NCBI GenBank assembly: GCA_013152765.1
Contig: JAADFT010000534.1
Coordinates: 1 to 28,491, forward strand
Length of the DNA stretch: 28,491 nt
Direction: 5' to 3'
Source: Calditrichota bacterium
GTDB taxonomy: Bacteria; Zhuqueibacterota; Zhuqueibacteria; Oleimicrobiales; Geothermoviventaceae
The stretch's first letter is position 1; each line of letters opens with the position of its first letter. Below, in pieces: positions 8,270-28,491 of the stretch. The notes under the pieces are model-generated. The model ran no database searches and was not told the DNA's origin. It worked only from the letters and a program-made list of their open reading frames with translations. The position numbers were made by a program, and so were the translations under genes.

Positions 8270-8845
8270 GCCGCTCCTCCGAGCGTGAACGCCGTTTGCG
8301 TCTCTCTCACCTCTTCTTCATTCGGCCAACGAAGGCCGAACTTTAGCCGAGACGAGTAAAATTGCCTTCTGAGAGGAACGTCACGAGAGCCTTAGTCCTT
8401 CTGTGCAGCAGGCATGTCGCCGTCGCCAGCCAGACTGCTGGGCCCCCTCGTTTTCAGGAGTCACCCGTTGGAAGGGTCGACCAGCCTTCTCACCTACAGG
8501 TAAAGCCAAAGTGCCACACTTTTCAGTCACGGGTCCCAGTTTCTGGCTACACCCGCAACACGCCCGCGGAGAGCGTCCAGACCTGCTACGCGAATTTCAC
8601 CTGAGTAAAGCCGAGTGCGGGGTAACTTTTTGTCCTGGCAGGATCGAATCCCCGGGACAGCCAGACAACGCGCCCGCCGAACCAAGCTTGATCGAGTGGG
8701 AATCTTCGATTACTTAACGTGGCAGGATTGACGAGTGAAGCGGCTACGCACCAGAATCAACCGAGCCCCTTGTGAACACGAGGCAGCGCTGGGAAAGCTA
8801 CCGACACGCCCCCAGAGCTGATTCAACGGGCTTCTTGCAGATGGG

Positions 8846-11913: not shown

Positions 11914-12003
11914 TTCACCACAGCGCCCCAGCTGAGCATTTTGTCACACGAAATTGACGGTAAATGCAGCGTCGAGATTACCTCCCTGCGAAACCCGACA
12001 GAA

Positions 12004-12582
12004 TCATTGCAGAAATGTTCGATCGTCTCCTCCGTGCGGATTGTGGCACTCTGTGCAATCCGCTTCTCCAATGTCACTGTGCACCGGGTTCGCAAACACG
12101 TCGGTTTTCTCGTGGCAAAACAGACAAAGGGCCTGCCCTTTTGCGAACAGCAGGTTCTCGTTCTTGGCCATGTGTGGATTATGGCAAGCGGTGCAGTAGC
12201 CGCCTGCCACAGGCCCGTGAAGAACTTCGAAGCTCTCACGAAAATCATCGTGGCAACCGTAACACAGATCCGGTTGTGGCGCAAGCAAGCGGTTTCCTGC
12301 TTGAATGTCATGACAGGAACCGCAATCTTTGTCCTGGTAAGGAGGATGAAAAACATACTGCGGCCCCATCCGGAGCCGGCGTAGCCTCTCTTCCAGTGCT
12401 GCACGATCAGCCACGGCAGACGTGTCGACTAACGCTACCTCAGAGGGGTTGGGAACTCCGTCGAAGAAAAAGGAAAGGACCTTGTAGCGGGTCATCGGCG
12501 AACAGGCGAAGTGAGCGAGACTGAGCGCAAAAGCGAGACCGACGAGCAGGAATCTTGTGCAACTGTGACGAAAATCGGTCAT
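12004..12582 (-). CDS. Pentaheme c-type cytochrome, probable lipoprotein (ExtC/ExtF-like)
   Basis: Hydrophobic leader ending in an atypical lipobox HFAC (Cys27), YKVLSFFFDGVP motif, 5 CXXCH (CGSCH, CYGCH, CTACH, CLFCH, CTECH). Confidence 0.85.
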   Translation of the reverse strand: MTDFRHSCTRFLLVGLAFALSLAHFACSPMTRYKVLSFFFDGVPNPSEVALVDTSAVADRAALEERLRRLRMGPQYVFHPPYQDKDCGSCHDIQAGNRLLAPQPDLCYGCHDDFRESFEVLHGPVAGGYCTACHNPHMAKNENLLFAKGQALCLFCHEKTDVFANPVHSDIGEADCTECHNPHGGDDRTFLQ

Positions 12583-12696
12583 GAGCTTTCCGTTACCGAG
12601 AAAGATCGCGTACGCTTTCGAAAATCCCCCGGCGTTCCGCTCAACTGATGGTCATCCATCCAGTTTGTACGGCAGTTTCTATTCGGTGATTCAGAT

Positions 12697-13764
12697 TCAG
12701 CGTGGTTCTACAAAACCGTACACGTTTACCTTGTCTGGACCGTACTGGTTTGTCACGAAAATGAGATACTTCAAGCGAAAGCGCTTGTCCACAAATTTCC
12801 GAAAAAGCTCCAGGTTGTCGTAGTCGATTACAACTTTCGCTGGCAACCACATGTAACCAGGGCCCTCGTAAGGCCCACCAAACGGCATCAACAAATGGCC
12901 GTCTCTGTCGAAAATCTGTACATTCTCAAAAGCGGCGTCCACAACGTAAAGGTTGCCGTCACGATCCACAGCAATTCCCTTAGGCCGGGCAAATTGCCCA
13001 AGTCCTCGTCCGTAACTGCCAACCGACCGCACAAATTTCCCATCCCGGGTGTAGATCTTGACTTTGAAATCCCCAATGTCGCTCACGTAAACTCGGTCGC
13101 GAGTCACGTAGAGATTGGTGGGCGAAAACAGCCGCGCCGCCGTGTCCGCGTCGGCTTCTGGAAACGAGTTGAGTAGCTCATGCGTGAAGGCGTGGTAGAC
13201 CCGAACTTTGTGAGACTTGAGATCTGTGACCCAAATCTTGTTGTCCACCACCTGGACGTCAGTGGGTTTCATCTCCGCCGGCCCACCAATGCTGTTGACG
13301 TAGCCAAGCTGATCATCGTAAATCACCACCTGTTGACGTCCGGTGTCCGCCACGTACAAGTAACCCTTTCCGTCTACGTAGCAGTTGATCGGTTTGCGCA
13401 GAAGCCCTAAGCCACGGGGTTTGAAGTACCTAAATGTTTTCCGCTTAAGATCGATGATTTCCAGCCCTGCCACGATCGTGTCGCAGATGTAGACAACACC
13501 GTGCCGGATTGCCAATCCGTATGGCTTGATGATCGGTTTCGGAGCCTGCTTTCCGAGAATGTAGGCCAGGAATCCCGAACGGCGTCCCGTGATGTCGGTA
13601 GATTCACTGAATCGCGCCAGGAACTGAATCCGAGCTGTGTCCGGCGGGGGCGGAAAAACGATGACCTCGTTTCCGGGCGACGTCTGGGCACCTACCCGCG
13701 TGGCTACCATCAACAAAAATCCGAAGATGCCGAGCAACAGTGTAGCGAATCTATTCCGAATCAT
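12697..13764 (-). CDS. Exported NHL-repeat beta-propeller protein
   Basis: Signal peptide, FPPPPDTARIQF N-terminal motif, NHL blades (KPYGLAI, LYVADTG, FARPKGIAVDRDGNLYVVDAAFENVQIFD). Confidence 0.88.
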   Translation of the reverse strand: MIRNRFATLLLGIFGFLLMVATRVGAQTSPGNEVIVFPPPPDTARIQFLARFSESTDITGRRSGFLAYILGKQAPKPIIKPYGLAIRHGVVYICDTIVAGLEIIDLKRKTFRYFKPRGLGLLRKPINCYVDGKGYLYVADTGRQQVVIYDDQLGYVNSIGGPAEMKPTDVQVVDNKIWVTDLKSHKVRVYHAFTHELLNSFPEADADTAARLFSPTNLYVTRDRVYVSDIGDFKVKIYTRDGKFVRSVGSYGRGLGQFARPKGIAVDRDGNLYVVDAAFENVQIFDRDGHLLMPFGGPYEGPGYMWLPAKVVIDYDNLELFRKFVDKRFRLKYLIFVTNQYGPDKVNVYGFVEPR

Positions 13765-13852
13765 CCCGTCGACTCCGAATCCCGTATTTCACAGAAAAAG
13801 ATACCTGACTCTTTTCTCCGCCTGTAATCTTTAGTTGTGCCTTCTCACAACA

Positions 13853-13886
13853 AGAGCTGAGGGGAGGCCCTCCTCCCCTCAGCTCT
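13853..13886 (-). terminator. Perfect 15-bp stem-loop directly downstream of omcE-like paralog 1 (terminator/attenuator or 3' stabiliser)
   Basis: AGAGCTGAGGGGAGG (13853-13867), loop CCCT, CCTCCCCTCAGCTCT (13872-13886). The - strand tail is TGTTGT, which is only weakly U-rich. Confidence 0.7.
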
Positions 13887-13920
13887 GCTTGTTCAACGAA
13901 GCTTTTGTCGGATTGTGGAA

Positions 13921-14538
13921 CTACTTGGCGTGGCACGTCAAGCAAAGAGCGCTGCCACCGTTGCTCTTCACAAGGAGGTTAGCCACACCGCTGCCATTAT
14001 GCACATCGTGGCAGGACGCGCACTGCAGCTTGTGGCCGTACAGCATGTCCTGGTCAATGGTGCCGCCCAAGCCGGAGCTGGTAGTCGTCGGGTCGTACAA
14101 ACCACCATCCGTGCTCGCCAAGGTGGCATCGTAGGTGAACGAAACTGGGTGATCGTTGCTCAGGTCAGTACCAATCAAGTCGTTTCCATGCACGAACACG
14201 TTGCCATTGGTATTACCACCGAAATTGTCTACAGCGACTGTGCCATCGTGGCAGCTCAGACAGAGCTTGGAATTTCCGTCGGGCTGACCGACAGATGCAT
14301 CCAGGCTGGAGCTGCTGTACGGCGTAAAAGTCGCGGAAGTGACCTGATGGTTCCACAAGGGCTCCACGTTGGCTTCAGCATGGTGTGGCGTATGACATAC
14401 GATGCAGATTTCTCCCGAAGGATTCCAGCTCTCTTGGGAGAAATCGTGCGCCGACCCAGCGATGGTCTGACCCTGCGCCACCCCGAAGGCCACACATAAC
14501 ATCAGTACCACCACGGGAACGAACAGTAAACGCTTCAT
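13921..14538 (-). CDS. omcE: OmcE-like tetraheme c-type cytochrome, paralog 1 (candidate nanowire subunit)
   Basis: Signal peptide, strong RBS GGGAGGAG, 4 CXXCH. The motif series AHDFS, ICIVCHTPH, PLWN, FTPYSSSS, LCLSCHDG, IGTDLSNDHPVSF, LQCASCHDVH, GSALCLTCH matches, in order and spacing, Geobacter OmcE as I recall it. Needs alignment to confirm. Confidence 0.85.
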   Translation of the reverse strand: MKRLLFVPVVVLMLCVAFGVAQGQTIAGSAHDFSQESWNPSGEICIVCHTPHHAEANVEPLWNHQVTSATFTPYSSSSLDASVGQPDGNSKLCLSCHDGTVAVDNFGGNTNGNVFVHGNDLIGTDLSNDHPVSFTYDATLASTDGGLYDPTTTSSGLGGTIDQDMLYGHKLQCASCHDVHNGSGVANLLVKSNGGSALCLTCHAK

Positions 14539-14925
14539 CGTTCTCCTCCCTCATATTCGATTGCATTAAACCGCTGGTCTTTCACAGCCTACCCTACTCC
14601 CGCTTTACAAAATCATGGAGGATCTCTGGAGCCCCACGTACGCCAACAGCTGCGGAGAAGACATATCTTTTGGCTACGCCGCATTGGGATGACCCGTCCC
14701 TGTCAATCAGTGCGAAACAAGCTTCCCTCAGATCCACTTACCGGCCATCCCTGGCCCCTGCCGAAAAACTTGGCCTTTCCCAACTTTTAAATTTCTCAAA
14801 CAATGAGCCCCAATTCTCCACCTTCTTGAGGCTCAAATATACGCCAATTACTGGCGTGAAACAAGCCTTTTTTGAAGGATAACTTCTACATCGTTTGCCA
14901 TAGCATTCTCAACGTGATCTCAAAC

Positions 14926-14940
14926 ACAAATATTGTGCCA
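14926..14940 (-). promoter_or_regulatory. Candidate sigma-54 (-24/-12) promoter for the omcE-like operon
   Basis: The - strand reads TGGCACAATATTTGT against the consensus TGGCAC-N5-TTGC (C to T at -12). An IHF-like CATCAATCGGTTG lies at 14990-15002. The same core occurs at 22807. Confidence 0.5.
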
Positions 14941-15048
14941 CTGATACCCGTTACGCACGTCCTATTTCACCTATTCGCAACCTTAGAAACATCAATCGGT
15001 TGCGGTAACGAACTCATCTCCGCAAAAACACCGTTTGCTCCGAATGGC

Positions 15049-16743
15049 TCAATACGACTTAGGGCTGTGTCTCTTCCCGTGACACTCCAGGTAGCACTTA
15101 CCACTGAAATTTCCTGTGTCCACAAATTCCAGTCGCCCAGTACGCGGATCGGGCGATACGACGTTCAGGTCAAAGTTCATCAAATGACTGTGATTTGTCG
15201 CATCCCCCTGACTGCTGCTAATTCCATGTGGATCGTGACACACGTTGCACGGAGTGTTTTCTCGAACAATGTGCTTCTTGTGTACCCTCTTGTAGAAACG
15301 CCCCATGCCGTTGATAACCTGACTCCGATCATGACACCTGTAACACAGTTCGTAGGCCTGGTAGGACTCGCTGGTACCGTCACTGGTAATGTACTGGTAC
15401 TTCATAATGTGCGGGTAGATGGATCCATGTGGTCCCTTGGCTGCTCCCGTCCCATCACTGGCATGGCAGTCCGTGCAGTAGATGATGCTGTTCTCGTTCA
15501 GCGGTGCGATCAGGCTTGGCACATTGGTGTTCCTGCCCGGTGCCTCAATCGGATGGTAAGACGGGTTGCTGGGATCAAACTCCAGTCGGACGTTGTTTTG
15601 TTCAACTTGGCGATGAGTCGGACTGCCCGGTTTGTTTGGACTGTCCGCGTGGCAACGGTAGCAAAGTTGGTACTGGTACTGGATTTCCTGCACCGCCTCT
15701 CCTTGTGAGTCGACACCACGCACACCGAGCAGAGCCCCCGTCACGTCCGGCGCAGAGGCTTCGAGAGCCTTTGCTGCATGAGGATTGTGGCAGTCGGTAC
15801 ATTCAACATGTCGCTTAGTCACAAGGGCGGGTTCAGCTGGATCGTGGATTCCCTGGTAGGAAAAAACATCGTGACGGTAAGTCTTGGCCATCTCGGCCTG
15901 GATGTCCGTTTCGGCAACGTTGCCGTTGTGGCAAACCAGACAGTTTTCCTCTTCTGGTTTCGAATTCAACAGTCTCTCTTCACCCTCGGCGGAATGAGGG
16001 TCATGGCAGTTTTCGCACGCATTTTCCGAGACGGTGCTGTACCCTGTGTGGAACCACGGATCGTTACCCAGACCATTCCACGTTGCCGAAGAAAGCGCAT
16101 GGCTTGCGTTGTCCCATCCCTTTTTCTGGTGACAGTAACGACAGAGTGTGGAATAGCGCTGACTCGCTACCAGGAAATTGCCGTACAGGTCTTTGTGAGG
16201 GTCGTGGCAGGACGTACACTGCAACTGTCCGTCCTCCAGCTGGACCGGTCCCGAGAGAGAAGCCGGATCCGCCAGCTCTCCTTCACTTGCAGCCAGAGTC
16301 GACGAGTAGTAGAATGAAACGGGGTGATCGTCGGCCAGATTCGTCCCGAGATTTGAGCTGCCCGACGGCATCGTGGTTACGCCACCCGCAAAGGTAATGG
16401 GTGACGATCGGCTCAACACATCCCCCAGTGCCAGAGACCCGTCATGGCACGATAGACACAGAATCGAGGAACCCGTAGGCTGTCCGGGTGACGCGAGCAG
16501 GGTCGAACTGCTGTAAAGTTTGTACGTGCTCCCTGGATCTTCTCGATTCCAGAGAGGTGCCCGCCCACTGCTTCGGTGGGGTGTGTGACAGAACACGCAC
16601 ACCTCTGTCTCGCTTTCGGCCTTAATGTCGCCGGGTCCGCTCACAGAAAGATTGTGGGGCGTGTTCAGAATCGATTGTCCGGCCGCGCCAACGGGCAACA
16701 TGAGAAATGCAACCAGAAGTCGTGTACGGTCAATTCTGCGCAT
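15049..16743 (-). CDS. Large exported multiheme cytochrome (11 CXXCH plus CYLECH) with an N-terminal OmcE-like domain
   Basis: Start set at ATG 16743 (RBS GGAG; the track starts at 16764). Signal peptide. The first four hemes carry PHNLS, VCVFCHTPH, PLWNR, LYSSST, LCLSCHDG, LGTNLADDHPVSF, LQCTSCHDPH. Confidence 0.87.
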   Translation of the reverse strand: MRRIDRTRLLVAFLMLPVGAAGQSILNTPHNLSVSGPGDIKAESETEVCVFCHTPHRSSGRAPLWNREDPGSTYKLYSSSTLLASPGQPTGSSILCLSCHDGSLALGDVLSRSSPITFAGGVTTMPSGSSNLGTNLADDHPVSFYYSSTLAASEGELADPASLSGPVQLEDGQLQCTSCHDPHKDLYGNFLVASQRYSTLCRYCHQKKGWDNASHALSSATWNGLGNDPWFHTGYSTVSENACENCHDPHSAEGEERLLNSKPEEENCLVCHNGNVAETDIQAEMAKTYRHDVFSYQGIHDPAEPALVTKRHVECTDCHNPHAAKALEASAPDVTGALLGVRGVDSQGEAVQEIQYQYQLCYRCHADSPNKPGSPTHRQVEQNNVRLEFDPSNPSYHPIEAPGRNTNVPSLIAPLNENSIIYCTDCHASDGTGAAKGPHGSIYPHIMKYQYITSDGTSESYQAYELCYRCHDRSQVINGMGRFYKRVHKKHIVRENTPCNVCHDPHGISSSQGDATNHSHLMNFDLNVVSPDPRTGRLEFVDTGNFSGKCYLECHGKRHSPKSY

Positions 16744-17764
16744 GCGCGCCTCTCCGTAACTCAAATATCTGCACTCGACCGTTGTAAGTGTCGGCTACGT
16801 AGATCCTGTCATTCACATCCACAAAAATCCCCGTCGGCAACCAAAACTCCCGCCTGCCGTGGCCTGGAGACCCGAAACGGTACAGCAACACGCCTTCACG
16901 ATCAAACACTTGAACCGCATTGAAAAGTGCATCGACGAGGTAAATATTTCCGTGGCGATCCACCGAAACGCCCTTGGGCCTCGCAAAATACCCGGAAGCA
17001 TCCCCTGCCTCACCAAAGGACGAGACAACGCTTCCGTCTTCCTGCAGGATTTGCAGCCGGAAGTTCAGAGCATCGACCACATAAGCGAGACCGGTACGGT
17101 CGATCCACAGAAAATTGGGGAAATTGAATTCCCCCAGTTCCTTTCCTCGATGTCCAATTGTTCGCTTTACATGACCGGTACGGTCCAGGACAGCGATCCG
17201 GTGCGCAAGCGTCTCAACAACCCAGATTTCATCAGAGACAGGTGACCACGCAATCCCGGTCGGCCTCTGTAACTTCCGGGACACGGTCAGTTTCCTGGCC
17301 TTTTTCTCGCCCCTCCTCAACGAGAAGACGGCGTTCAGACGGGAATCCGTAAAGTAGAGTGTGCCGTCTCCTGCGACGCATGCAGAAACGAGGGAAGGAA
17401 ACTGGCGGTATTCCTCGCTTCGAACAAGCTGGTACCGCCGTTGAGAACTATCGGTTACCACGACAGCACGAAGCCCCTGATCCAGGATGAACCACGTCGA
17501 ACCATCTGCTACGAAAGCTACTGGCCGTGAGAGGGAAGGGCCTCGCTTACCGGCGATTAGCCTAAGAAGCCGATCACCCAACCTCTGGTGTTGCGCCAGG
17601 AGAGTTTGTTGACTTATTTCGCCAACCCACCGCACGGAGTAGCTTCCATCCTCCGCCACAGCGGGGTGCAGGACGAAAGTAGCCGCCAGCCACACCGCTG
17701 CTGAGCTAACCACTCGCCAGAGGCAGACCGACATACGCTCAGGAATCTCGAGCCGCAACCTCAA
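16730..17764 (-). CDS. Exported NHL-repeat beta-propeller protein
   Basis: Hydrophobic leader, NHL blades (LQRPTGIAW, GEFNFPNFLWID, FARPKGVSVDRHGNIYLVDALFNAVQVFD, FWLPTGIFVDVNDRIYVADTYNGRVQIF). The start codon is uncertain (TTG 17764 or a downstream ATG). Confidence 0.88.
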   Translation of the reverse strand: MRLRLEIPERMSVCLWRVVSSAAVWLAATFVLHPAVAEDGSYSVRWVGEISQQTLLAQHQRLGDRLLRLIAGKRGPSLSRPVAFVADGSTWFILDQGLRAVVVTDSSQRRYQLVRSEEYRQFPSLVSACVAGDGTLYFTDSRLNAVFSLRRGEKKARKLTVSRKLQRPTGIAWSPVSDEIWVVETLAHRIAVLDRTGHVKRTIGHRGKELGEFNFPNFLWIDRTGLAYVVDALNFRLQILQEDGSVVSSFGEAGDASGYFARPKGVSVDRHGNIYLVDALFNAVQVFDREGVLLYRFGSPGHGRREFWLPTGIFVDVNDRIYVADTYNGRVQIFELRRGAHAQN

Positions 17765-18223
17765 CGTGTCCCCTGTTCAGGGATCCGGAGCACTGACACT
17801 CACAGCGCAGGAACTAAAGAGCCTACCTTTTCTTTTATCGACACATCTACGCCAGTCCGTAAGTTTCTCTGCGAATAAGGTAGTGAAAATGAGTCTCGAA
17901 ATCAATGTCGTACTTCGCAAAGTCTCAAACTGAATCGGACTCCTTCGTGGCCCCTACAAGCACCCAGCTACCCCGAGAAACACTGCGCAACAAGTGTTTT
18001 TTGTCAGCGTTTTCCGCCCCTCAAGCTTAAACTTCGCGATTCAGAACTCAGCCAACGAGCATTGCTCGATCTTCTGGGGCACACTTCCTCCCGTACCGGG
18101 TCTGATGCACAACCCGGAACAAGGCCGCAAAAAGTCTGGCACTTGAAGAACTTGGGTCACTTTGTGACGTTTAGGGGTCCACAAGCCCTTTATTTTCTTT
18201 AATGTGCTTTCTGTATTTCTTTC

Positions 18224-18252
18224 TTGACTTTCGTAACAAAAATTAATAAAGT
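18224..18252 (+). promoter_or_regulatory. Candidate sigma-70 promoter for the decaheme/beta-barrel operon
   Basis: TTGACT (18224-18229), 17-bp spacer, TAAAGT (18247-18252), with an AT-rich tract just upstream in an otherwise GC-rich region. Confidence 0.6.
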
Positions 18253-18388
18253 TCACCTGAAGTGAGGATCCGCGGGGGTGGACTCAACACACCCACGGTA
18301 CCGGGTAAAGCAGGCTCTGCGGTACCGGGCTCTACGGGTTTCCAGCCGTACAGACTGTTAACCAACACAACGTGGAGGAGACCAGCGT

Positions 18389-19336
18389 ATGAGGTACAAA
18401 CTCCCATTCTTGCGGAGGGCATGCCTCGCGTTCCTGGTGCTCCTGTTCTTCGCGGTACCAGCAGGTTTCCGCACCGCCGACGCGGCCAAGAAGGCCGAGA
18501 AGGTTGGCGACCAAACCTGCCTGACGTGCCACGAAGACGTCGGGAAATCTTTTGCGCACAGTGTTCACGCGCAAAAGACCACGACGAAGGGGTACACCTG
18601 CGAGGCCTGTCACGGGCCAGGGTCTGTTCACGCAGAAAGCATGGACCCGGCCGACATCTACAACCCGGCGACCGACTACAATCCGGTCGCACCCAACCCA
18701 TGTCTCACCTGTCACAACGGACCGCAGTTCACCTCAGCCACAGCTTCGGCTCACCACGAGCTGGCGGACGGCTGCAGCGACTGCCATCAGGTCCACTCCA
18801 CCGAACCGAAGCTCCTGAAGAAGCAGGGGTCCGAGCTTTGCGTCGACTGCCACAAGGACATCGGCGCCAAGTTCAGCCTCACTTCGCACCACCCGGTGAA
18901 GGAAGGCCTGATGAGCTGCACAAGCTGTCATGCCGTCCACGGTGGCGACAACAAGTTCACGCACACGGACAACAGCCGTGAGCTCTGCATCTCCTGTCAC
19001 ACGGACAAGGCTGGTCCGTTCGTCTTCGAGCACGAACCGGTGAACGAAGACTGTGGCATTTGCCACGACCCGCACGGGACCGTGGCGAACAACCTTCTGA
19101 AGCAAACCGAACCGTTCCTCTGCATGTCGTGCCATCCGGTGCACTTCCACACGGGCATTGCTGGCTACATCGGCGACTTCAAGAACCCGCTCCACCCGGA
19201 GCGCGGTGGCAAGTCGACGCTGGACGGTTTCAAGTCCGGCATGCTCACCAAGTGCACCCAGTGCCACACGCAGATTCACGGTTCGGATTTGCCGTCTGAG
19301 AGTATTTCAAGCCGCGGACGCTCTTTGACCAGATAG
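18389..19336 (+). CDS. Periplasmic decaheme c-type cytochrome, MtrA/DmsE family
   Basis: RBS GGAGGAG, signal peptide, 10 CXXCH with MtrA-type spacing, HHPVKEG, GPFVFEHEPV and C-terminal CTQCHTQIHGS motifs. Confidence 0.93.
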   Translation: MRYKLPFLRRACLAFLVLLFFAVPAGFRTADAAKKAEKVGDQTCLTCHEDVGKSFAHSVHAQKTTTKGYTCEACHGPGSVHAESMDPADIYNPATDYNPVAPNPCLTCHNGPQFTSATASAHHELADGCSDCHQVHSTEPKLLKKQGSELCVDCHKDIGAKFSLTSHHPVKEGLMSCTSCHAVHGGDNKFTHTDNSRELCISCHTDKAGPFVFEHEPVNEDCGICHDPHGTVANNLLKQTEPFLCMSCHPVHFHTGIAGYIGDFKNPLHPERGGKSTLDGFKSGMLTKCTQCHTQIHGSDLPSESISSRGRSLTR

Positions 19337-21939: not shown

Positions 21940-22374
21940 CTAAAGGTTCCCTCGCGGACCTCCCCGCCTCCCAAAGGCACGCCACATGGGGGCACCGTCG
22001 GCCTCTCTGAAAACCCATTTCTTGCCATTGAGACCAACCTGGCGGGCGATCCAGTACTCTTTACCTTTGTACTCAACCACCTGAACGGCGACGTGGAGCG
22101 TTGCCCCCGGAGTGAGCCGGAGGCCAAGGTTGTCGAGGTAAAACTGAGGTCCAAGCCGGACTTCCACTTCGTCACCCTCCGGGGTGCGGAGAACAACCGC
22201 GACGGTCTCAAAACGTCCGGCCAAGGGTTTCACCTTGATAACCCGAACAATCGTGCCCCCAAGCGTAGTGCGGCGTTTGATTTCAAAGCGGTACCTGTGA
22301 AAACGGGGTTGCGCACCAGCAGTCACAGCAAATGCCAAAAGCAGCAGCACGGCAACAGCGGATTTGCGGAACAT
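21940..22374 (-). CDS. Small exported hypothetical protein, probable OB-fold (MamS/MamX C-terminal-like pattern)
   Basis: Start set at ATG 22374 behind RBS GGAGGT. Signal peptide ending AGAQ. Pattern VRLGPQFYL...WIARQV...FREADGAPMW. The fold assignment is from recall. Confidence 0.65.
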   Translation of the reverse strand: MFRKSAVAVLLLLAFAVTAGAQPRFHRYRFEIKRRTTLGGTIVRVIKVKPLAGRFETVAVVLRTPEGDEVEVRLGPQFYLDNLGLRLTPGATLHVAVQVVEYKGKEYWIARQVGLNGKKWVFREADGAPMWRAFGRRGGPRGNL

Positions 22375-22806
22375 GACAACCACCTCCATCTTTCTTTCCT
22401 TTTCTTCCTTCGTTTGCTTCCGTTGCTTGTTCTTCTCTCCTTCACCGCAGCAGCATGGCTTTTCTTCTGCGCGAAACTGGCCTCAGGCAAGCCTGCCCTG
22501 CCACCCTTCCACTCAAAAGAAGCTCTCGCCAGCGAGTCGACCGTGGTCGCTCCGGGTCATCCACAAAACCTGTGCCAGGGCTGTGCTACGGTGACTTCGC
22601 TTTCGGCGCAAGTGCACTTGAACTAAGATGTTAGAGTCACCTGGCTCTCGGGAGCTGCGCACTGTGGCGTCGACGAAATCGTCGAAACAGACGACCATTT
22701 CGTCGAAAGCAAGTGGCGAGGCTGCTCAGTTTTTCAGAACGAAAATTCAAGCTAACGTTACAAAATTCAAAATGTTAGCCGCACGGGACGGAGCCATTGT
22801 GGAAAC

Positions 22807-22821
22807 TGGCACATCCTTTGT
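22807..22821 (+). promoter_or_regulatory. Candidate sigma-54 (-24/-12) promoter for the beta-barrel/Fe-S operon
   Basis: TGGCACATCCTTTGT. IHF-like ATTCAAAATGTTA at 22765-22777. Direct repeats TCGTCGAAA at 22679 and 22700, at a typical activator-binding distance. Confidence 0.55.
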
Positions 22822-22930
22822 AGGCCAAGAGCGCGCAGCAAGAGCTGGCGGGGTTCTCGGGTCCGCCTTTCTTCAACAAGTTCGTTCGTGGGTCATCGGC
22901 GAGCACACCACTGCTGAAGGGTCTGCTAAA

Positions 22931-24202
22931 GTGAGCAACAACGTTTCACGAATCTGGAAGATCGCAACTGTTTGCCTGGCTTTTGGCGTTGGGACGGCAG
23001 CCGCTGCTCGCGGTGCCGACCTCACCGGGCGGGTTTCCCTGCGCTGGTACCGAATGCTCAACGCCGGGGCGCCAACCGCACAGACCTTCGGCGGGTACGC
23101 GCGTCTCCAGCTGACGGACCTGATGCCCGGCCTGGGATTCAGCCTTTACGTGCGGCAGTACAGGCGCCCTACCAATCCCCTGGCCGGTTCGCCCAGGATT
23201 TACGAGCTCCAGCTTTACGGCACAAAGCTCTTCGGGTTCCTCGACCTCAACGCCGGGCGACTGAACAGTCCCTACCTCGGATCTTTTGGACTTCTGGATG
23301 GGATTGCTGCGACCGCGACGCCCGCAGAACACTTCTTTTTCGGAGCCTTCACCGGCTGGCGCCCGGACTACGTGACACTCAGCTCTGACCGTGCTTTCGG
23401 ACGCCGTGGCGTGTTCATTGGGTCAACCACGCGACACCTGGAATCTCAGATTTCCCTGATCGAGGAATCCCAGGAGAACGTGACACAGCGGCGTTTTGTC
23501 AGTCTGAGGAACAGCTTCGACCTCAAGGAAAAGTTCTTCCTGTACCAGCTCGGCGAAGTTGATTTTCAGTCTGCACTGACGGGTCAGTCGCAAAAACCTT
23601 CTTTGACGTACCTTTCCACGGACTTGCGCTACTGGCCCAACCGGACATTTCGAGCCAGTGTGGGTTACACCTACCGAACAGAATACTTCAACGTCTGGGG
23701 AGATTCTCTGCTTGCAGATTCCGCGTACGCGGCTTCGGTACGGCAGAGTTGGGATACCGGCTTTACTCTCCGGCCCTTCAAACACTGGAGATTGAGCGCC
23801 GGTTACCGTTACGGATTTCGTCGCGAGGACAACGAAACGCAAACGTACTGGTACGTCGGTCTGGCCAACAGCCGTTTCTTCGGCAAATACTGGTACGCGA
23901 ATCTCCGGTACTCGCAAAGTCGAAGCCCTTACAGCGTGAGCCGCAGTCTCTACGCCTCTCTTGATTTTTCGCTGACCCGGCGAGTTCGCCTGACGCTTAC
24001 GGATCTCTGGAACCGCTACGACGGACTTGCCACAAGCTACAGCTACGATTCGCAAGTCCAGGGGTTGAGCCTGAACTTCCTGCTCAGCAGGCGAATCCGC
24101 CTTTACCTGCATGCGGATCGCTACACTGGCCCTTACCAGGACGATCGGATGCTGTACGTAGAGGTGTCGTACCGATTCTTGCGCGACTGGAGGAAGCGAT
24201 GA
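22931..24202 (+). CDS. Probable outer-membrane beta-barrel protein
   Basis: Start set at GTG 22931 (GAAGG upstream, followed by a signal peptide ending AAARGA). Amphipathic aromatic-rich strands, C-terminal YVEVSYRF. The 101 extra upstream codons in the track look non-coding. Confidence 0.7.
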   Translation: MSNNVSRIWKIATVCLAFGVGTAAAARGADLTGRVSLRWYRMLNAGAPTAQTFGGYARLQLTDLMPGLGFSLYVRQYRRPTNPLAGSPRIYELQLYGTKLFGFLDLNAGRLNSPYLGSFGLLDGIAATATPAEHFFFGAFTGWRPDYVTLSSDRAFGRRGVFIGSTTRHLESQISLIEESQENVTQRRFVSLRNSFDLKEKFFLYQLGEVDFQSALTGQSQKPSLTYLSTDLRYWPNRTFRASVGYTYRTEYFNVWGDSLLADSAYAASVRQSWDTGFTLRPFKHWRLSAGYRYGFRREDNETQTYWYVGLANSRFFGKYWYANLRYSQSRSPYSVSRSLYASLDFSLTRRVRLTLTDLWNRYDGLATSYSYDSQVQGLSLNFLLSRRIRLYLHADRYTGPYQDDRMLYVEVSYRFLRDWRKR

Positions 24203-24948
24203 ACACGCACAAGACATTCTTGATCATGGACACACGCCGCTGCCTGGACTGCGGCAACTGTGAGCGCGCCTGCGAGCGTCGACACGGTGAGCCCCGGTTC
24301 GACCGACACGGGTTCGAGGTGGGTTACATCCGCGTGCCGACAACATGCAAAGACTGTGTGGATCCGGAATGCGTGGCGGCATGCCGTTTTCAGGCCATGA
24401 TCAAGACGCGAGATCGCCTCACCCAGCCTACCGAAATGTGCGTGGGTTGCAACCTTTGCGCGCGGAAGTGCCCATTCGGAGCCATCAACATGCTGCCGAG
24501 CCAGGTGGTCCAGGAGAAAATTCTACCCAAGAAACAGGCCAAAACCGAGCGAGGACTCTTCTTCGTCTCACGATGGCTCCAACGGGCCGACAACAATGGC
24601 AAAACCGAAGGTACACCCGCTTTGACCGCCTCGAAAGGCTCCTCTGATACCAGCCCGAAAAAGGCGAAACGGAAACGGGAGGTCTGGAAGTGTGACGCCT
24701 GCGCAGGCTACAAAAAGCGGGCTTGTGTGTACAACTGCCCCACAGGGGCTTTGCGCGAAGTTGCTCTGGATGACCTCGTCAGGGAGCTTCCGAGGGAATG
24801 GGGCCAGATCTTGGTCGAGTACCTCGCGCCCGCCTTCCTGACGCGCGAAGAGAAAGAAGCAATCCGCGAAGGGAAGTTGCGTCTGGTGGTCACCGAGGAC
24901 AAACGGATCGAGCTGGCACCCGTGGAAAAGGTTGCGCTGGTCGCGTAG
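24199..24948 (+). CDS. 4x[4Fe-4S] electron-transfer protein, DmsB/NrfC-like, no signal peptide
   Basis: 16 Cys in four groups: CLDCGNCERAC, CKDCVDPECVAAC, CVGCNLCARKCP, CDAC...ACVYNCP. ATGA overlap with the beta-barrel gene. Confidence 0.88.
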   Translation: MNTHKTFLIMDTRRCLDCGNCERACERRHGEPRFDRHGFEVGYIRVPTTCKDCVDPECVAACRFQAMIKTRDRLTQPTEMCVGCNLCARKCPFGAINMLPSQVVQEKILPKKQAKTERGLFFVSRWLQRADNNGKTEGTPALTASKGSSDTSPKKAKRKREVWKCDACAGYKKRACVYNCPTGALREVALDDLVRELPREWGQILVEYLAPAFLTREEKEAIREGKLRLVVTEDKRIELAPVEKVALVA

Positions 24949-25508
24949 GACGGATTCTTGCAACGCAAACAGGTAACATGACAGCGCAGAGTTGAATTGG
25001 AAGCGAAAAGGCAGGCCGCTTGTCATTCGGCGTACGGGGAGAATCTGAAAGTGGCAAGGGACGGGGAGACACCCACGGGTAAATGTTGCCTTTCTGTCCC
25101 CAGCCATTTTCCCCTTTCTGCTTCCCGAACCGAACCTGCAGATCGCCTCTTTCGCAAGTCCAGTGTGGACCAGCGCTGCGTAGATCTACTCGTGACGTGC
25201 AAACAACCTCGGCGACGGGCCAGAGTTCTGCCTACACTCCCGGGGCGTAATGGATCAGGATCCGGGCAAAGTAGCTTGCGGCTTTAGCAAGCAACCTGTA
25301 CCCGGCCGGGCAGAATCACTGTTTCAGCAAACAGGGAATCCTGGCTAAACCCGAAGAGAGGACTCTTCTCGCGTGGGCGGGTAGCCACGTTTTGTGGGTG
25401 CGTCAGGTCTACTTTCACCCAGCATCGGCCTGGCGTTCGCCAACAGATTTTGCGGACTGAAATGGAGTTGGTGGCAATTTGAACAACGCTTGTTAAGGAG
25501 GGTTGTCC

Positions 25509-26636
25509 ATGCGGTTCAAACAGTTTTCACTCGGACTTCTGCTCACGCTGGTCAGTTGGTCGGTTTCCAGTGCGGCCACCACGCTCAAAGGCGAAGTCAC
25601 TGGCAGACTCACTGCCGCACGAAGTCCCTACCACGTGGTCGACGACCTCATCGTCCCCGCGGGCGACAGTTTGATCATTGGACGCGGCGTTGAGCTGCGT
25701 TTCGACAGCGCCAAAGTTCTCGAAGTCCGCGGCACGTTACGGATTCTTGGCACACAGCGCGCCCCCGTGCTGCTCACCTCAGCGTGGGCTCGTCCCAAAC
25801 CTGGCGCGTGGAAAGGGATTTACTTCACCAACAGCGCCAACGACCGCTCTGTCGTCCAACACGCGATCATTCGCCACGCACTTTTTGGGGTGCGGATCGT
25901 CTCCTGTTCGCCAACTCTTTCGAACACCCGAATCGAAGACGCGGGAGAACACGGCATCTGGCTCAAAACCAGCTGGGCACGTCTTGAAAGCAACCGCATT
26001 CTGCGCAGCAAGGAAGACGGTCTGCAAGCAACGAACTTTCAGGGCCTTTTGCTGAACAACCTGGTTCAGGAAAACGGTGACGACGGCATCGATCTGCGTC
26101 GGTCCACGTGCAAAGTGAAGGGAAATCGTCTCATCGCCAATCACGACGACGGGATCGTTCTGGACAGTTGCGAGGCTGTGGTAGTGCACAACACGCTCGA
26201 ACGCAACGGCGACGACGGCGTGCTGATTCGCGCCGGGCGTCCGGTCGTGGCCTACAACCTTTTCGTCCGCAACCTCTACGGGATCTTCGTTTACGGGCAT
26301 GCGGCTCCGATTCTCCAAAACAACACGCTGGTTCAAGGAACGTACGGTCTGTACGTCCGCGACCACTCCATCGCTCAGGTGATCAACTCCATTTTGTGGG
26401 ACAACGCTACTCAGATCGAAGTCGATTCCCTGAGCACCGCCAATGTGCGCCACAGCGTGGTACAAGGTGGCTACCCGGGGTCTGGCAATTCGAGTCAAGA
26501 TCCCAAGTTCGTCAGTCAAACCGATTTTCACCTGGCGCCCGGTTCCCCCTGCCTCAAGGGAGCAGACCCCTCAGCGCCGTACCACGATCCGGAAGTGAAG
26601 CAGTTGTTCATCGGTGCACTTGGACTGAAACGGTGA
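25509..26636 (+). CDS. Exported right-handed parallel beta-helix repeat protein (pectin-lyase-like fold)
   Basis: ATG 25509 behind RBS AAGGAGG, signal peptide, SPYHVVDDLIVPAG and WKGIYF motifs, roughly 22-24-aa repeats (N.GDDGI/V...N.I..N), C-terminal DPKFV..DFHL.PGSPC. Confidence 0.85.
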   Translation: MRFKQFSLGLLLTLVSWSVSSAATTLKGEVTGRLTAARSPYHVVDDLIVPAGDSLIIGRGVELRFDSAKVLEVRGTLRILGTQRAPVLLTSAWARPKPGAWKGIYFTNSANDRSVVQHAIIRHALFGVRIVSCSPTLSNTRIEDAGEHGIWLKTSWARLESNRILRSKEDGLQATNFQGLLLNNLVQENGDDGIDLRRSTCKVKGNRLIANHDDGIVLDSCEAVVVHNTLERNGDDGVLIRAGRPVVAYNLFVRNLYGIFVYGHAAPILQNNTLVQGTYGLYVRDHSIAQVINSILWDNATQIEVDSLSTANVRHSVVQGGYPGSGNSSQDPKFVSQTDFHLAPGSPCLKGADPSAPYHDPEVKQLFIGALGLKR

Positions 26637-26644
26637 ACGGGGCC

Positions 26645-28491
26645 ATGAAAGGGCAAATCAAAACCACGCTGCTGGCGTGGACTGGGCTCCTGCTGCTGTT
26701 CTACGCCACAACAGGACGAGCCCAGCAGTGGGTCTCGCCGGGGCCCCTTCACAAAGTCCACGCCAAGTACGAAGGCATCACCCACTGTACTCTTTGCCAC
26801 GAGCTCGGCAAACGCGTGACAAACCAGAAGTGTTTGCAGTGCCACGACCGGATCGCGTTGAATATCCAGCAAAACATTGGGTACCACGCGAAAAACGCCG
26901 ACAAACCGTGCACGGAGTGCCACATCGAACACAAAGGGCGTGACTACCCCATCATCGAGCTGGACCGCCAGACCTTCGACCACGCGGAAACCGGCTTCAA
27001 ACTGGAAGGTAAACACAAAGAGCTCGAGTGCGAGGCTTGTCACACCAATCCCCGCAGTTTTCTCGGGCTGAGTCAGCAGTGCGTTCGTTGCCACGACGAT
27101 TTCCACGAAGGAACGCTCGGCCTGAAGTGTCAGGATTGCCACTCGTTCGACAGCTTCCGACCGAGCACGTTCAAACACAAGCCCTCTCAACTACAGGCTC
27201 AAGGAGCGCACAAAGACCTCGCCTGCGAAGCCTGCCACCCGGATCGCGTCTACGCGGGCCTGGACAGCTCATGTGTCGCCTGCCACGAAGATCAGCACAA
27301 GGGCCTTCTCGGCGACCGGTGCGAAAAGTGCCACACCACGGAAGATTTCACCCGAACCCGATTCGACCACAACCGGGACACCAAATTTCACCTGACGCTC
27401 ACCCACGCGACGCTCGACTGTGACGTTTGCCATGCCGGCGACTACGCCGTCGTGCCCGACACCAGTTGCCAGCTCTGCCACGAGGACGAACACAAAGGAC
27501 GTTTCGACGAAAATTGCAACACGTGCCACGAGCCAAACACGTTTGCTTTGACGACATTCACGCACGAGAAGCCTTTCTTCGAACTCCAGGGATTTCACAA
27601 GACACTTGACTGCGAAGCCTGCCACACGCCTGGCGACTTTGCGCCCGTCAGCCAGCGCTGCGAAGACTGCCACGAAGACGAACACAAAAACTGGATGAGC
27701 GTGCAGCGCTGCGACAGCTGCCACACACAGACGGCTTTCCGCCCCAGCACGTTCCGCCACGACTCCACGAAATGGAAACTCGGTGGCAAACACACCGAAC
27801 TGGATTGCCAGGTTTGTCACCTCCCCAACGATTTTCACCAGCAGGGACAGGCGTGCAGCAACTGCCACGAGGACGAACACGGCGGGCAATTGAGCAGCAA
27901 CTGCCAGGAGTGTCACTCATTCAGCGCTTTCAGCCCGAGCACCTTCAAACACAAGAAAGACGACTTCCAGATGCAGGGTAAGCATGCTGAGCTGAAGTGC
28001 GAGAAGTGTCACGCAGACCACCGGTACTCCCTGCTCAAGTCCAACTGTACCAGTTGTCACGAAGACAGCCACCATGGCGACTTAGGGCCGAATTGTCAGG
28101 AGTGCCACAATTTCACCAGCTGGACGGACGTTTTCTACGACCACAACCAGACGAATTTCCCACTGCGCGGCCAGCACCAGCACCTTCGCTGCGAAGAGTG
28201 CCACAAGCAGGGCAAATTCGAGAGCACGCCGACCCGGTGCATGTTCTGCCACCAGGACCCGCACGACAAGACGTTTGGCACGGACTGCGAGTCGTGCCAC
28301 AACGAAGAGGGTTGGGACCTGATCACCTTCGATCACAACACCACTGGTTACGAGCTCCTCGGCCAGCACCAGACGCTGGACTGCGTTGCGTGCCACACAG
28401 AGCTCAAGCCAATTCCCATGCCCAGTTCCTGCTACTCGTGTCACCGGGGTGACTACGAGCACACGACCTCACCCGACCACAAGGCTCTCGG
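26645..28491 (+). CDS. Giant exported multiheme c-type cytochrome built from tandem triheme repeats (3'-truncated by the window end)
   Basis: My translation from ATG 26645 (MKGQIKTTLLAW...) is open for 615 codons to the window end. Signal peptide, SPGPLHKVH, 26 CXXCH. Missing from the ORF track because no stop codon is in the window. Confidence 0.92.
   Translation, partial: MKGQIKTTLLAWTGLLLLFYATTGRAQQWVSPGPLHKVHAKYEGITHCTLCHELGKRVTNQKCLQCHDRIALNIQQNIGYHAKNADKPCTECHIEHKGRDYPIIELDRQTFDHAETGFKLEGKHKELECEACHTNPRSFLGLSQQCVRCHDDFHEGTLGLKCQDCHSFDSFRPSTFKHKPSQLQAQGAHKDLACEACHPDRVYAGLDSSCVACHEDQHKGLLGDRCEKCHTTEDFTRTRFDHNRDTKFHLTLTHATLDCDVCHAGDYAVVPDTSCQLCHEDEHKGRFDENCNTCHEPNTFALTTFTHEKPFFELQGFHKTLDCEACHTPGDFAPVSQRCEDCHEDEHKNWMSVQRCDSCHTQTAFRPSTFRHDSTKWKLGGKHTELDCQVCHLPNDFHQQGQACSNCHEDEHGGQLSSNCQECHSFSAFSPSTFKHKKDDFQMQGKHAELKCEKCHADHRYSLLKSNCTSCHEDSHHGDLGPNCQECHNFTSWTDVFYDHNQTNFPLRGQHQHLRCEECHKQGKFESTPTRCMFCHQDPHDKTFGTDCESCHNEEGWDLITFDHNTTGYELLGQHQTLDCVACHTELKPIPMPSSCYSCHRGDYEHTTSPDHKAL
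26975..28491 (+). repeat. Intragenic tandem repeat, 192-195 bp (64-65 aa), 7 complete units plus 1 partial
   Basis: Units start at 26975, 27170, 27362, 27557, 27752, 27944, 28136 and 28328. Consensus F.H....F.L.G.H..L.CxxCH..CxxCH.D.H.G....CxxCH. Diverged at the DNA level. Confidence 0.9.

What the first reader, a model, noticed from the sequence alone, without database searches (positions are those of the whole stretch)
26645..28491. Unannotated giant cytochrome: a single-chain heme wire of at least 26 hemes in 64-65-aa triheme repeats
Seen: 3 N-terminal CXXCH, then 7 complete repeats and a partial eighth. Each complete repeat has 3 CXXCH and 3 positionally conserved extra His (F/Y-x-H, the G/T-x-H position, D-x-H), which is exactly enough for bis-His ligation of every heme. 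The frame is still open at the window end. Established: polymers of triheme domains (c7-type, for example Geobacter GSU1996) form elongated heme chains. Inference: a covalently encoded wire whose length is set by repeat number, a second wire design next to the non-covalent OmcE-type one.
Basis: partly seen in the sequence, partly recalled or inferred. Interest (0 to 1): 0.68.

Follow-up and report, generated by a model that had tools for sequence, protein, structure and literature searches.

The report
36-heme periplasmic cytochrome wire (PCC3-type)
The gene is real and encodes an 856-residue, 36-heme cytochrome built from twelve three-heme units, but it belongs to a large family already described from genomes (the periplasmic "wire" of PCC3-type electron conduits), so it is a long but ordinary example.

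Summary
From ATG 26645 the frame encodes a signal peptide, a three-heme N-terminal cap, seven 64-65-aa repeats and part of an eighth. That gives 26 CXXCH motifs, against 0.4 expected by shuffling. Each repeat has three conserved extra His.

The window is a whole contig. A second contig of the same genome overlaps its end by 91 exact bases and completes the gene: 856 aa, 36 CXXCH, 12 units, no C-terminal anchor. Two relatives (91-95% identical) carry the same gene uninterrupted.

The protein passes the c7 triheme models. Its unit profile aligns with all four domains of Geobacter GSU1996, but His replaces the GSU1996 Met ligand.

The next gene downstream encodes the conserved inner-membrane protein of PCC3 clusters (two WX3HX13H motifs plus SGxxG). 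A homologue of the PCC3-position barrel lies upstream. No extracellular cytochrome is present.

The family is very large: 1065 clusters at E<=1e-30, with up to 94 hemes per protein. PCC3 periplasmic cytochromes with 21-27 hemes are already in the literature. This scan has also reached the same verdict on at least eight other genomes.

Verdict: a new member of a known, functionally untested kind. The linear shape could not be verified here.

The parts
26645..28491 (+). 5' 1847 nt (615 codons) of the 36-heme cytochrome gene. The remaining 241 codons and the stop lie on contig C255 (L004:4914-5638, minus strand).
   Evidence: ATG 26645 lies 8 nt after the stop of the upstream beta-helix gene. The 855-aa homologue P0002 is 95% identical to the joined 856-aa protein.
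26645..26722 (+). Sec-type signal peptide (aa 1-26, ending in the residues GRA). No lipobox cysteine.
   Evidence: Read directly from the translation. All 72 Cys of the mature protein lie in CXXCH motifs.
26729..26956 (+). N-terminal triheme cap unit (aa 29-104) with the SPGxL...H...EG motif shared by the first (inner-membrane-protein-proximal) cytochromes of related clusters.
   Evidence: The Pfam Cytochrom_CIII match covers aa 36-99.
26957..28309 (+). Seven regular triheme repeats of 64-65 aa (aa 105-555). Each has 3 CXXCH plus His at F/Y-x-H, G/T-x-H and (E/D)-D-x-H.
   Evidence: Pairwise identity between repeats is 28-52%, so they are old duplications. CXXCH spacing is a regular 16/16/32.
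28310..28491 (+). Start of unit 9, the first of four more divergent C-terminal units of 70-79 aa. It is cut by the contig end.
25503..26636 (+). Secreted NosD-like right-handed beta-helix protein (377 aa). It lies immediately upstream and is conserved next to the cytochrome in L005, L010, L006 and L032.
   Evidence: Pfam PF13229 at E 1.7e-28 and PF05048 at E 2.3e-15. Synteny.
24199..24948 (+). Signal-less poly-[4Fe-4S] ferredoxin-like protein (249 aa), conserved in the same cluster.
22628..24202 (+). Probable outer-membrane beta-barrel. The ORF is 524 aa. Homologues are 424-451 aa, so the true start is probably later.
   Evidence: No Pfam or NCBIfam hit. BLASTP finds the barrels that follow the second cytochrome in PCC3-ordered loci L013, L016 and L014 (E 9e-10, 1e-8, 8e-6). 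It also finds the small barrels next to single cytochromes in L006, L032, L027 and L028.

Best explanation
The gene encodes a soluble, Sec-exported periplasmic c-type cytochrome. The mature protein has 830 residues and about 117 kDa with hemes. It carries 36 hemes, about 23 residues per heme, in twelve c7-related triheme units joined without linkers. All hemes are probably bis-His, so none has an open catalytic site.

It is the counterpart of the 'periplasmic multiheme cytochrome' of PCC3-type porin-cytochrome clusters. Most likely it acts as a covalent heme chain that carries (and buffers) electrons across the periplasm. One end would meet the inner-membrane protein encoded by the next gene, predicted to bind two b-hemes. 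The other end would meet an outer-membrane barrel encoded three genes upstream.

Shown here: the gene structure, the repeat and ligand pattern, family membership, the conserved gene neighbourhood and the variation in unit number.

Inferred: heme occupancy, periplasmic location, linear geometry, the contacts with the membrane proteins, and the direction and substrate of electron flow. The source is a hydrothermal-vent bacterium of the Bacteroidota/FCB type that has many other multiheme cytochromes.
For: Gene and repeats.

c7 relationship:
- PF14522 matches in 8 stretches at E 3e-35.
- TIGR04257 nanowire_3heme scores 47.5 bits against a cut-off of 40.
- The unit profile hits 3OV0 (GSU1996) at E 1.4e-6 with all four domains aligned, and also 3OUQ, 3OUE and 1RWJ.

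Ligands: three conserved extra His per unit. The whole mature protein has 48 extra His for 36 hemes, only 9 Met, and no free Cys.

Export: a signal peptide, no lipobox, and no T9SS or other C-terminal domain.

Partner protein:
- The next gene (L004:3836-4726, minus strand, 297 aa) has two WX3HX13H motifs and SGIIG between them. This is the signature He et al. 2017 give for the PCC3/PCC4 inner-membrane protein.
- Homologues of it lie next to homologues of the cytochrome in L006, L007, L009, L010, L012, L013, L014, L016, L019, L021, L028, L029, L030, L031 and L032.

N-terminal cap: it matches the first cytochrome of two-cytochrome loci, not the second one.

Barrel homology.

Literature: PCC3 periplasmic cytochromes have 21, 24 or 27 hemes, their AlphaFold models are 'long and mostly linear', and they are proposed to span the periplasm. 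GSU1996 is an extended 12-nm, 12-heme chain (title cited).

Our AlphaFold runs: the two-unit fragment gave pLDDT 86 and pTM 0.61. The full-length homologue gave pLDDT 74 and pTM 0.30. That means good local but undefined global geometry, as expected for a non-globular chain.

Habitat: hydrothermal vent metagenomes.
Against: No function has been shown experimentally for any PCC3 component. In Sideroxydans ES-1 both PCC3 clusters went down, not up, on Fe(II).

This cluster lacks the extracellular cytochrome that defines PCC3.

The barrel homology is weak (23-24% identity, E 1e-9 to 8e-6), and the barrel fold itself was not verified.

There are 187 nt between the cytochrome stop and the next gene, so co-transcription is not certain. 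No credible terminator lies in that gap.

Linear geometry was not measured. Foldseek found no cytochrome match for either model.

Some family members sit in unrelated neighbourhoods without the membrane protein, for example the Nitrospira-type locus L008.
Confidence: 0.75

Rival explanations
1. The protein is mainly an electron store (capacitor), not a conduit. The 36 hemes would hold charge in the periplasm when no acceptor or donor is available, as proposed for GSU1996.
For: The capacitor role is the published proposal for GSU1996 and is also raised for PCC3 cytochromes. The high heme density of 23 aa per heme fits storage as well as it fits conduction.
Against: The conserved pairing with a transmembrane redox protein and a barrel suggests a defined path with two ends. 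Storage and conduction do not exclude each other.
Confidence: 0.12
2. The protein is a single-chain replacement for both PCC3 cytochromes. In this lineage the lengthened chain would span the periplasm and also thread the small barrel to reach the cell surface, so no separate extracellular cytochrome is needed.
For: In the loci fetched, first-type cytochromes followed by a second large cytochrome have 20-27 hemes (L007, L030, L014, L013, L016, L011, L015, L017, L018, L020, L022). Those without a second one mostly have 30-44 hemes and a barrel of about 410-450 aa instead of 548-716 aa. These are this locus/L005/L010 with 36, L006 and L032 with 30, L027 and L028 with 41, and L029 and L009 with 44. 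At about 1 nm per heme, as in GSU1996, 36 hemes would exceed a typical periplasm. That last point is inference.
Against: The sample is small and phylogenetically non-independent. There are exceptions: L012 has 23 hemes and L031 has 27, both without an adjacent second cytochrome. Other multiheme cytochromes and another barrel lie elsewhere in the window and could serve as the outer partner. No structural evidence exists.
Confidence: 0.12
3. The protein is a catalytic multiheme enzyme, such as a reductase or oxidase for a soluble substrate.
For: Many large multiheme proteins are enzymes. Weak sub-threshold hits to NrfH and HmcA models were seen.
Against: Every unit carries three conserved distal His, there is no CXXCK or other variant motif, and there is no non-cytochrome domain.
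Confidence: 0.02

Closest known systems
Periplasmic multiheme cytochrome of PCC3 porin-cytochrome clusters (He et al. 2017, PMC5566968; Hoover et al. 2023, PMC9900912; e.g. Sideroxydans lithotrophicus ES-1 Slit_0867-0870)
   Same: Heme counts come in multiples of three, with about 24 aa per heme and the same low-complexity repeats. There is a signal peptide. The gene lies next to the ~300-aa inner-membrane protein with 5 predicted TM helices, SGxxG and two WX3HX13H motifs. A barrel gene is in the cluster. The protein is 30-35% identical to cytochromes sitting in canonical PCC3 gene order (L007, L014, L030).
   Different: It has 36 hemes against the 21-27 reported for Gallionellaceae. There is no extracellular Thr/Ser/Ala/Gly-rich cytochrome in the cluster. 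Gene order differs and the barrel is smaller. Extra conserved neighbours are present: a signal-less 4Fe-4S protein, a NosD-like beta-helix protein and an FGE-sulfatase-like protein. The host is of Bacteroidota/FCB type rather than Proteobacteria.
Geobacter sulfurreducens GSU1996 dodecaheme cytochrome (PDB 3OV0; fragments 3OUQ, 3OUE, 1RWJ) and its relatives GSU0592 and GSU2210
   Same: It is a single polypeptide made of tandem c7-type triheme domains and is periplasmic. The unit profile aligns with each of the four GSU1996 domains. It passes the TIGR04257 'nanowire_3heme' cut-off.
   Different: Sequence similarity is marginal (whole-protein E 0.004). GSU1996 has one His-Met heme per domain. Here the aligned position holds an invariant His, and a further invariant His (F-D-H) has no counterpart in GSU1996. 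Units abut without linkers. There are 12 units against 4.
Triheme cytochrome c7 (PpcA family, Pfam PF14522)
   Same: Three bis-His hemes per unit. By my reading of the motif spacing (an inference), H-x7-CXXCH and H-x3/4-CXXCH-x11/12-CXXCH correspond to the c7 layout once the unit is phased from the D-x-H position. That is the phase in which the Pfam model aligns.
   Different: c7 is a free 70-aa protein with an H-x2-H pair near its N-terminus. Here one distal His comes after the first heme motif instead, and the units are fused in a chain.

Membership tests
c7-type triheme domain polymers (TIGR04257 nanowire_3heme / PF14522; GSU1996 type) | Score above the curated family cut-offs | tested here: met
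   PF14522 scores 120.1 bits against 24.8, in 8 stretches. TIGR04257 scores 47.5 bits against 40.
c7-type triheme domain polymers (TIGR04257 nanowire_3heme / PF14522; GSU1996 type) | Tandem units of about 65-80 aa, each with three CXXCH | tested here: met
   Twelve units of 64-79 aa with 3 CXXCH each.
c7-type triheme domain polymers (TIGR04257 nanowire_3heme / PF14522; GSU1996 type) | Unit-for-unit alignment with the solved GSU1996 domains | tested here: met
   The profile of 72 units hits 3OV0 at E 1.4e-6. Profile positions 2-64 align to residues 21-80, 103-158, 181-238 and 260-316.
c7-type triheme domain polymers (TIGR04257 nanowire_3heme / PF14522; GSU1996 type) | One His-Met heme per domain (the GSU1996 hallmark, PMC10138318) | tested here: not met
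   An invariant His sits where GSU1996 has the Met-containing segment, and there is no conserved Met. The protein has 9 Met in all, and five of the twelve units have none.
c7-type triheme domain polymers (TIGR04257 nanowire_3heme / PF14522; GSU1996 type) | Extended fold with a continuous chain of closely spaced hemes | tested here: inconclusive
   AlphaFold models gave pLDDT 74 / pTM 0.30 for the full length and 86 / 0.61 for two units. No coordinates were returned, and Foldseek found no cytochrome match.
PCC3 porin-cytochrome cluster (He et al. 2017) | Periplasmic multiheme cytochrome with a very low aa-per-heme ratio and internal repeats | tested here: met
   23.1 aa per heme and 12 repeats. 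It is homologous to the first cytochromes of PCC3-ordered loci at 250-345 bits and shares their N-terminal cap motif.
PCC3 porin-cytochrome cluster (He et al. 2017) | Adjacent ~300-aa inner-membrane protein with SGXXG and two WX3HX13H motifs | tested here: met
   The 297-aa product of the next gene has motifs at residues 96 and 266 and SGIIG at 137. It is homologous to the equivalent protein in 15 related loci.
PCC3 porin-cytochrome cluster (He et al. 2017) | Outer-membrane porin gene in the cluster | tested here: inconclusive
   The ORF at 22628-24202 is weakly homologous to the barrels in the PCC3 position of L013, L016 and L014 (E 9e-10 to 8e-6). No family model matches it, and its fold was not predicted.
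PCC3 porin-cytochrome cluster (He et al. 2017) | Second, extracellular cytochrome rich in Thr/Ser/Ala/Gly | tested here: not met
   There is no second cytochrome between the barrel and the FGE-like gene in this locus, L005, L010, L006 or L032. True examples are seen in L007 and L030, where Thr+Ser+Ala+Gly make up 0.48 and 0.51 of residues.
PCC3 porin-cytochrome cluster (He et al. 2017) | Role in extracellular electron transfer | not testable with these tools
   This is untested in the literature as well.

The most novel reading that the evidence does not exclude
In this Bacteroidota/FCB-type vent lineage the PCC3 conduit may have been rebuilt. The separate extracellular cytochrome is gone. The 'periplasmic' chain is lengthened to 30-44 hemes and paired with a smaller barrel. 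On this reading one covalent chain would run from the inner-membrane b-heme protein through the outer membrane to the cell surface. A signal-less poly-ferredoxin would act as the cytoplasmic partner. The conserved NosD-like beta-helix and FGE-like proteins would be new accessory parts.
Probability: 0.15. Interest if true: 0.6.

Novelty: new member of a known kind. Interest (0 to 1): 0.3.

Why it matters
Single-chain heme polymers of this type are among the densest biological redox wires known. [quoted passage not shown]

This example adds three things:
- A long form (36 hemes, with all hemes probably bis-His).
- A host outside the Proteobacteria, from hydrothermal vents.
- A conserved cluster variant without the extracellular cytochrome, which could help define the minimal conduit.

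It does not change the picture of what these proteins are.

Tried and rejected
- **Whole-protein PDB sequence search.** This gave only a marginal hit to 3OUQ (E 0.004). A unit profile was needed to show the relationship.
- **C-terminal anchor or sorting domain.** None found. The C-terminal 270 aa match only cytochrome families, and the protein ends just after its last heme motif.
- **Lipoprotein.** Rejected: there is no Cys in the signal peptide.
- **Frameshift or pseudogene.** Rejected.
- **Recent repeat expansion or assembly artefact.** Rejected. Repeats are only 28-52% identical as protein. At the DNA level the only internal match was 57 nt at 77%.
- **Terminator between the cytochrome and the next gene.** Nothing above chance.
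- **Longer ORF from GTG 26108.** Rejected as the start. It overlaps the beta-helix gene in another frame. The homologues and the signal peptide fix the start at 26645.
- **Second copy in the genome.** None. The genome has 23 ORFs with at least 4 CXXCH, this one is by far the largest, and only one full-length membrane-protein partner is present.
Full report
**1. Observation**

The window is an entire contig (G000:C534, 28,491 bases). The frame from ATG 26645 to the window end translates to 615 residues without a stop. The ATG lies 8 nt after the stop of the upstream gene.

The longer ORF listed from GTG 26108 overlaps that upstream gene in another frame. It is not supported by homologues.

The product begins with a Sec-type signal peptide that has no lipobox cysteine. 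It contains 26 CXXCH motifs. Shuffles that keep the composition give 0.42 on average and never more than 3.

The motifs are spaced 16/16/32 residues apart with a period of 64-65 residues. Cutting the protein into units shows the following:
- An N-terminal triheme cap (aa 29-104).
- Seven regular repeats (aa 105-555), each with three CXXCH and three extra His at F/Y-x-H, G/T-x-H and (E/D)-D-x-H.
- The start of an eighth repeat.

**2. Full length**

Contig C255 of the same genome (locus L004) overlaps the window end by 91 identical bases on its minus strand. No other contig shares that sequence.

The joined ORF is 856 codons with 36 CXXCH in twelve triplets, followed by a stop. The last four units are longer (70-79 aa) and more divergent.

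The join is not an assembly guess, for two reasons:
- Protein P0002 (855 aa) is 95% identical over its whole length and matches 234 of the 241 residues beyond the window. It is encoded by one uninterrupted gene on an independent contig (L005).
- The nearest species representative in the genome collection is a MAG labelled 'uncultured Cytophagia bacterium', 91% identical. It also carries a contiguous 36-heme gene.

The C-terminal part matches only cytochrome families and ends just after its last heme motif. There is therefore no anchor or sorting domain.

The mature protein has these properties:

| Property | Value |
|---|---|
| Length | 830 aa |
| Mass with hemes | about 117 kDa |
| Residues per heme | 23.1 |
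| Extra His (beyond the 36 in CXXCH) | 48 |
| Met | 9 |
| Cys outside CXXCH | 0 |

**3. What the units are**

Pfam Cytochrome_C7 (PF14522) matches in eight stretches (E 3e-35). NCBIfam TIGR04257, the 'nanowire_3heme' c7-type domain, scores 47.5 bits against a cut-off of 40.

A whole-protein search of PDB sequences is barely significant (3OUQ, E 0.004). I therefore built a profile of 72 units from 12 family members, phased as the Pfam model aligns them, from D-x-H to the second following CXXCH.

That profile hits the Geobacter dodecaheme cytochrome GSU1996 (3OV0) at E 1.4e-6, with all four of its domains aligned end to end. It also hits the fragments 3OUQ, 3OUE and 1RWJ.

In those alignments GSU1996 has its Met-containing segment where this family has the invariant G-x-H histidine. 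It has no His where this family has the invariant F-D-H. Published work states that each GSU1996 domain has one His-Met heme (PMC10138318).

So this protein is related to the c7 polymers but is an all-bis-His variant with a different placement of one distal ligand. Which His binds which heme is my inference from the motif spacing.

The repeats are old: 28-52% identical to one another. They are individually orthologous in a 52%-identical relative that also has 12 units. The 30-heme relatives have two fewer units, 10 against 12.

**4. Neighbourhood and system**

The next gene on the joined contig (L004:3836-4726, minus strand) encodes a 297-aa membrane protein. It has two WX3HX13H motifs (residues 96 and 266) and an SGIIG motif in the hydrophobic segment between them.

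This is exactly the signature that He et al. 2017 describe for the conserved inner-membrane protein of their PCC3 and PCC4 clusters. They interpret it as a two-b-heme redox protein related to ferric-reductase and cytochrome b domains (PMC5566968).

Homologues of this protein lie beside homologues of the cytochrome in 15 of the related loci I fetched. Their labels span Acidobacteriota, Saprospiraceae, Flavobacteriaceae, Cyclobacteriaceae, Chromatiales and Rubrivivax.

Several of those loci have the canonical PCC3 order:
- membrane protein;
- a cytochrome with 20-27 hemes;
- a much larger cytochrome rich in Thr/Ser/Ala/Gly (47 to over 58 hemes in L030 and L007, 66 in L014);
- a barrel of 548-716 aa.

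The window's protein shares its N-terminal SPGxL...H...EG cap with the first of these cytochromes, not the second. Its composition also matches the first.

Hoover et al. 2023 report that PCC3 periplasmic cytochromes have 21, 24 or 27 hemes. Their AlphaFold models are 'long and mostly linear', and the chain might span the periplasm (PMC9900912).

The window's cytochrome is therefore a member of this described family.

**5. How this cluster differs**

In this genome, its two close relatives (L005, L010) and two lineages only 43-46% identical (L006, L032), the conserved set is, in order:
- probable barrel (about 450 aa);
- signal-less poly-[4Fe-4S] protein;
- secreted NosD-like beta-helix protein;
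- cytochrome (30 or 36 hemes);
- inner-membrane protein;
- FGE-sulfatase-like protein.

There is no second cytochrome in the set. The barrel is weakly but significantly similar to the barrels at the PCC3 position in L013, L016 and L014 (E 9e-10 to 8e-6). It is also similar to small barrels that directly follow single 41-heme cytochromes in L027 and L028.

Across the loci at hand there is a pattern:

| Locus type | Heme count of the first cytochrome | Examples |
|---|---|---|
| Followed by a second large cytochrome | 20-27 | eleven loci |
| No second cytochrome nearby | mostly 30-44 | 36 here; 30 in L006 and L032; 41 in L027 and L028; 44 in L029 and L009 |
| Exceptions (no second cytochrome, short chain) | 23 and 27 | L012 and L031 |

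This is a small, non-independent sample. I treat it as a lead, not a result.

In L028 a ferredoxin-reductase-type flavoprotein precedes the membrane protein. That fits the idea that the membrane protein receives electrons from a cytoplasmic partner. Here that partner could be the signal-less Fe-S protein. This is inference.

**6. Mechanism**

The most likely mechanism is a periplasmic, covalently encoded chain of 36 low-spin hemes. It would relay and buffer electrons between the two-b-heme membrane protein and the outer-membrane barrel.

Continuity of the chain is supported only indirectly:
- There are 23 residues per heme, with no linkers and no non-heme domains.
- The proximal His of each unit's last heme lies four residues from a distal His of the next unit.
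- The units are homologous to the GSU1996 domains, whose crystal structure is an extended 12-nm chain (title cited).
- Linear AlphaFold models have been published for homologues.

My own AlphaFold runs gave good local confidence: pLDDT 86 and pTM 0.61 for two units, and pLDDT 74 for the full-length homologue. The global pTM was low at 0.30. That is what an elongated chain without fixed long-range contacts gives. No coordinates were available to measure length or heme spacing, and Foldseek found nothing relevant.

The direction of electron flow and the substrate are unknown. The only expression study I found showed PCC3 genes going down on Fe(II) in Sideroxydans (PMC8788666). The sequence occurs in hydrothermal vent metagenomes. 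The genome encodes 22 other ORFs with four or more CXXCH motifs, six of them in this window.

**7. How common it is**

A word-indexed search found 4,707 proteins at E<=1e-10 within the permitted length range. Sources name them 'cytochrome C', 'cytochrome c3 family protein' or 'hypothetical protein', in Chloroflexota, Nitrospirota, Betaproteobacteria, Acidobacteriota and others.

An exhaustive phmmer search of 1.84 billion cluster representatives found 2,819 at E<=1e-10 and 1,065 at E<=1e-30. Among the best 145, the median is 29 CXXCH, 36 have at least 36, and the largest has 94 in 2,321 aa.

Thirty-six hemes is above the range reported for Gallionellaceae but unremarkable for the family.

The scan's own notebook shows at least eight earlier follow-ups on other genomes that reached the same PCC3 assignment for 21-27-heme proteins. 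I reached mine before reading them. No look-alike stretch of this exact protein had been noted.

**8. Verdict**

The interpretation as a c7-type single-chain heme wire is supported by homology, but the geometry is not demonstrated. The claim of a new design is not supported.

It is a new, long member of a known but experimentally untested family. It sits in a cluster variant that lacks the extracellular cytochrome and carries extra conserved genes.

Noticed in passing
window 22628-26636 plus L004:2986-4726 (minus strand): A six-gene set is conserved around the cytochrome in five loci (this one, L005, L010, L006, L032). It comprises a small probable barrel, a signal-less poly-[4Fe-4S] protein, a NosD-like beta-helix protein, the cytochrome, the WX3HX13H membrane protein and an FGE-sulfatase-like protein. 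The beta-helix and FGE-like genes are not mentioned in the passages of the PCC3 papers I read.
   Followed up: partly
window 21940-22389 (-): The 149-aa secreted protein has homologues in L005 and L010 (77-79% identical). The L005 homologue carries the precomputed Pfam label MamS_MamX. The window protein scores weakly against NCBIfam MamS (E 1.8e-5, 24.9 bits, far below the cut-off of 200). The resemblance to a magnetosome-protein domain sits next to an electron-conduit cluster.
   Followed up: no
L004:992-2245 (minus strand; joined coordinates 31884-33140): A DUF2202 protein with a FlgD-Ig / T9SS C-terminal sorting domain lies downstream. L006 and L032 have a BNR-repeat protein with the same T9SS tail inside the cluster. 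T9SS cargo next to the conduit fits a Bacteroidota/FCB-type host.
   Followed up: no
window 7646-19336: Six further multiheme cytochrome genes lie in the window, with 4, 9, 5, 4, 11 and 10 CXXCH. One is a decaheme gene followed by a 574-aa ORF with no family match. They could provide outer partners for the 36-heme protein.
   Followed up: no
L028:7625-9992 and L009:6080-7991: In other lineages the WX3HX13H membrane protein is preceded by a flavoprotein. L028 has a FAD_binding_6/NAD_binding_1/Fer2 protein and L009 has a Pyr_redox_2 protein. In L009 the membrane protein is a short 184-aa form, and the whole module is duplicated in tandem.
   Followed up: no
window end / L004:5638-5728: The assembly broke inside the gene, at unit 9. 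The two contigs share exactly 91 bases, which looks like an assembler k-mer overlap rather than a biological boundary.
   Followed up: yes
L004:4727-4913 (joined 29216-29402): There is a 187-nt gap between the cytochrome stop and the membrane-protein start, against 11 nt in L006 and 9 nt in L032. No promoter-like or terminator-like site above chance was found in the gap.
   Followed up: partly
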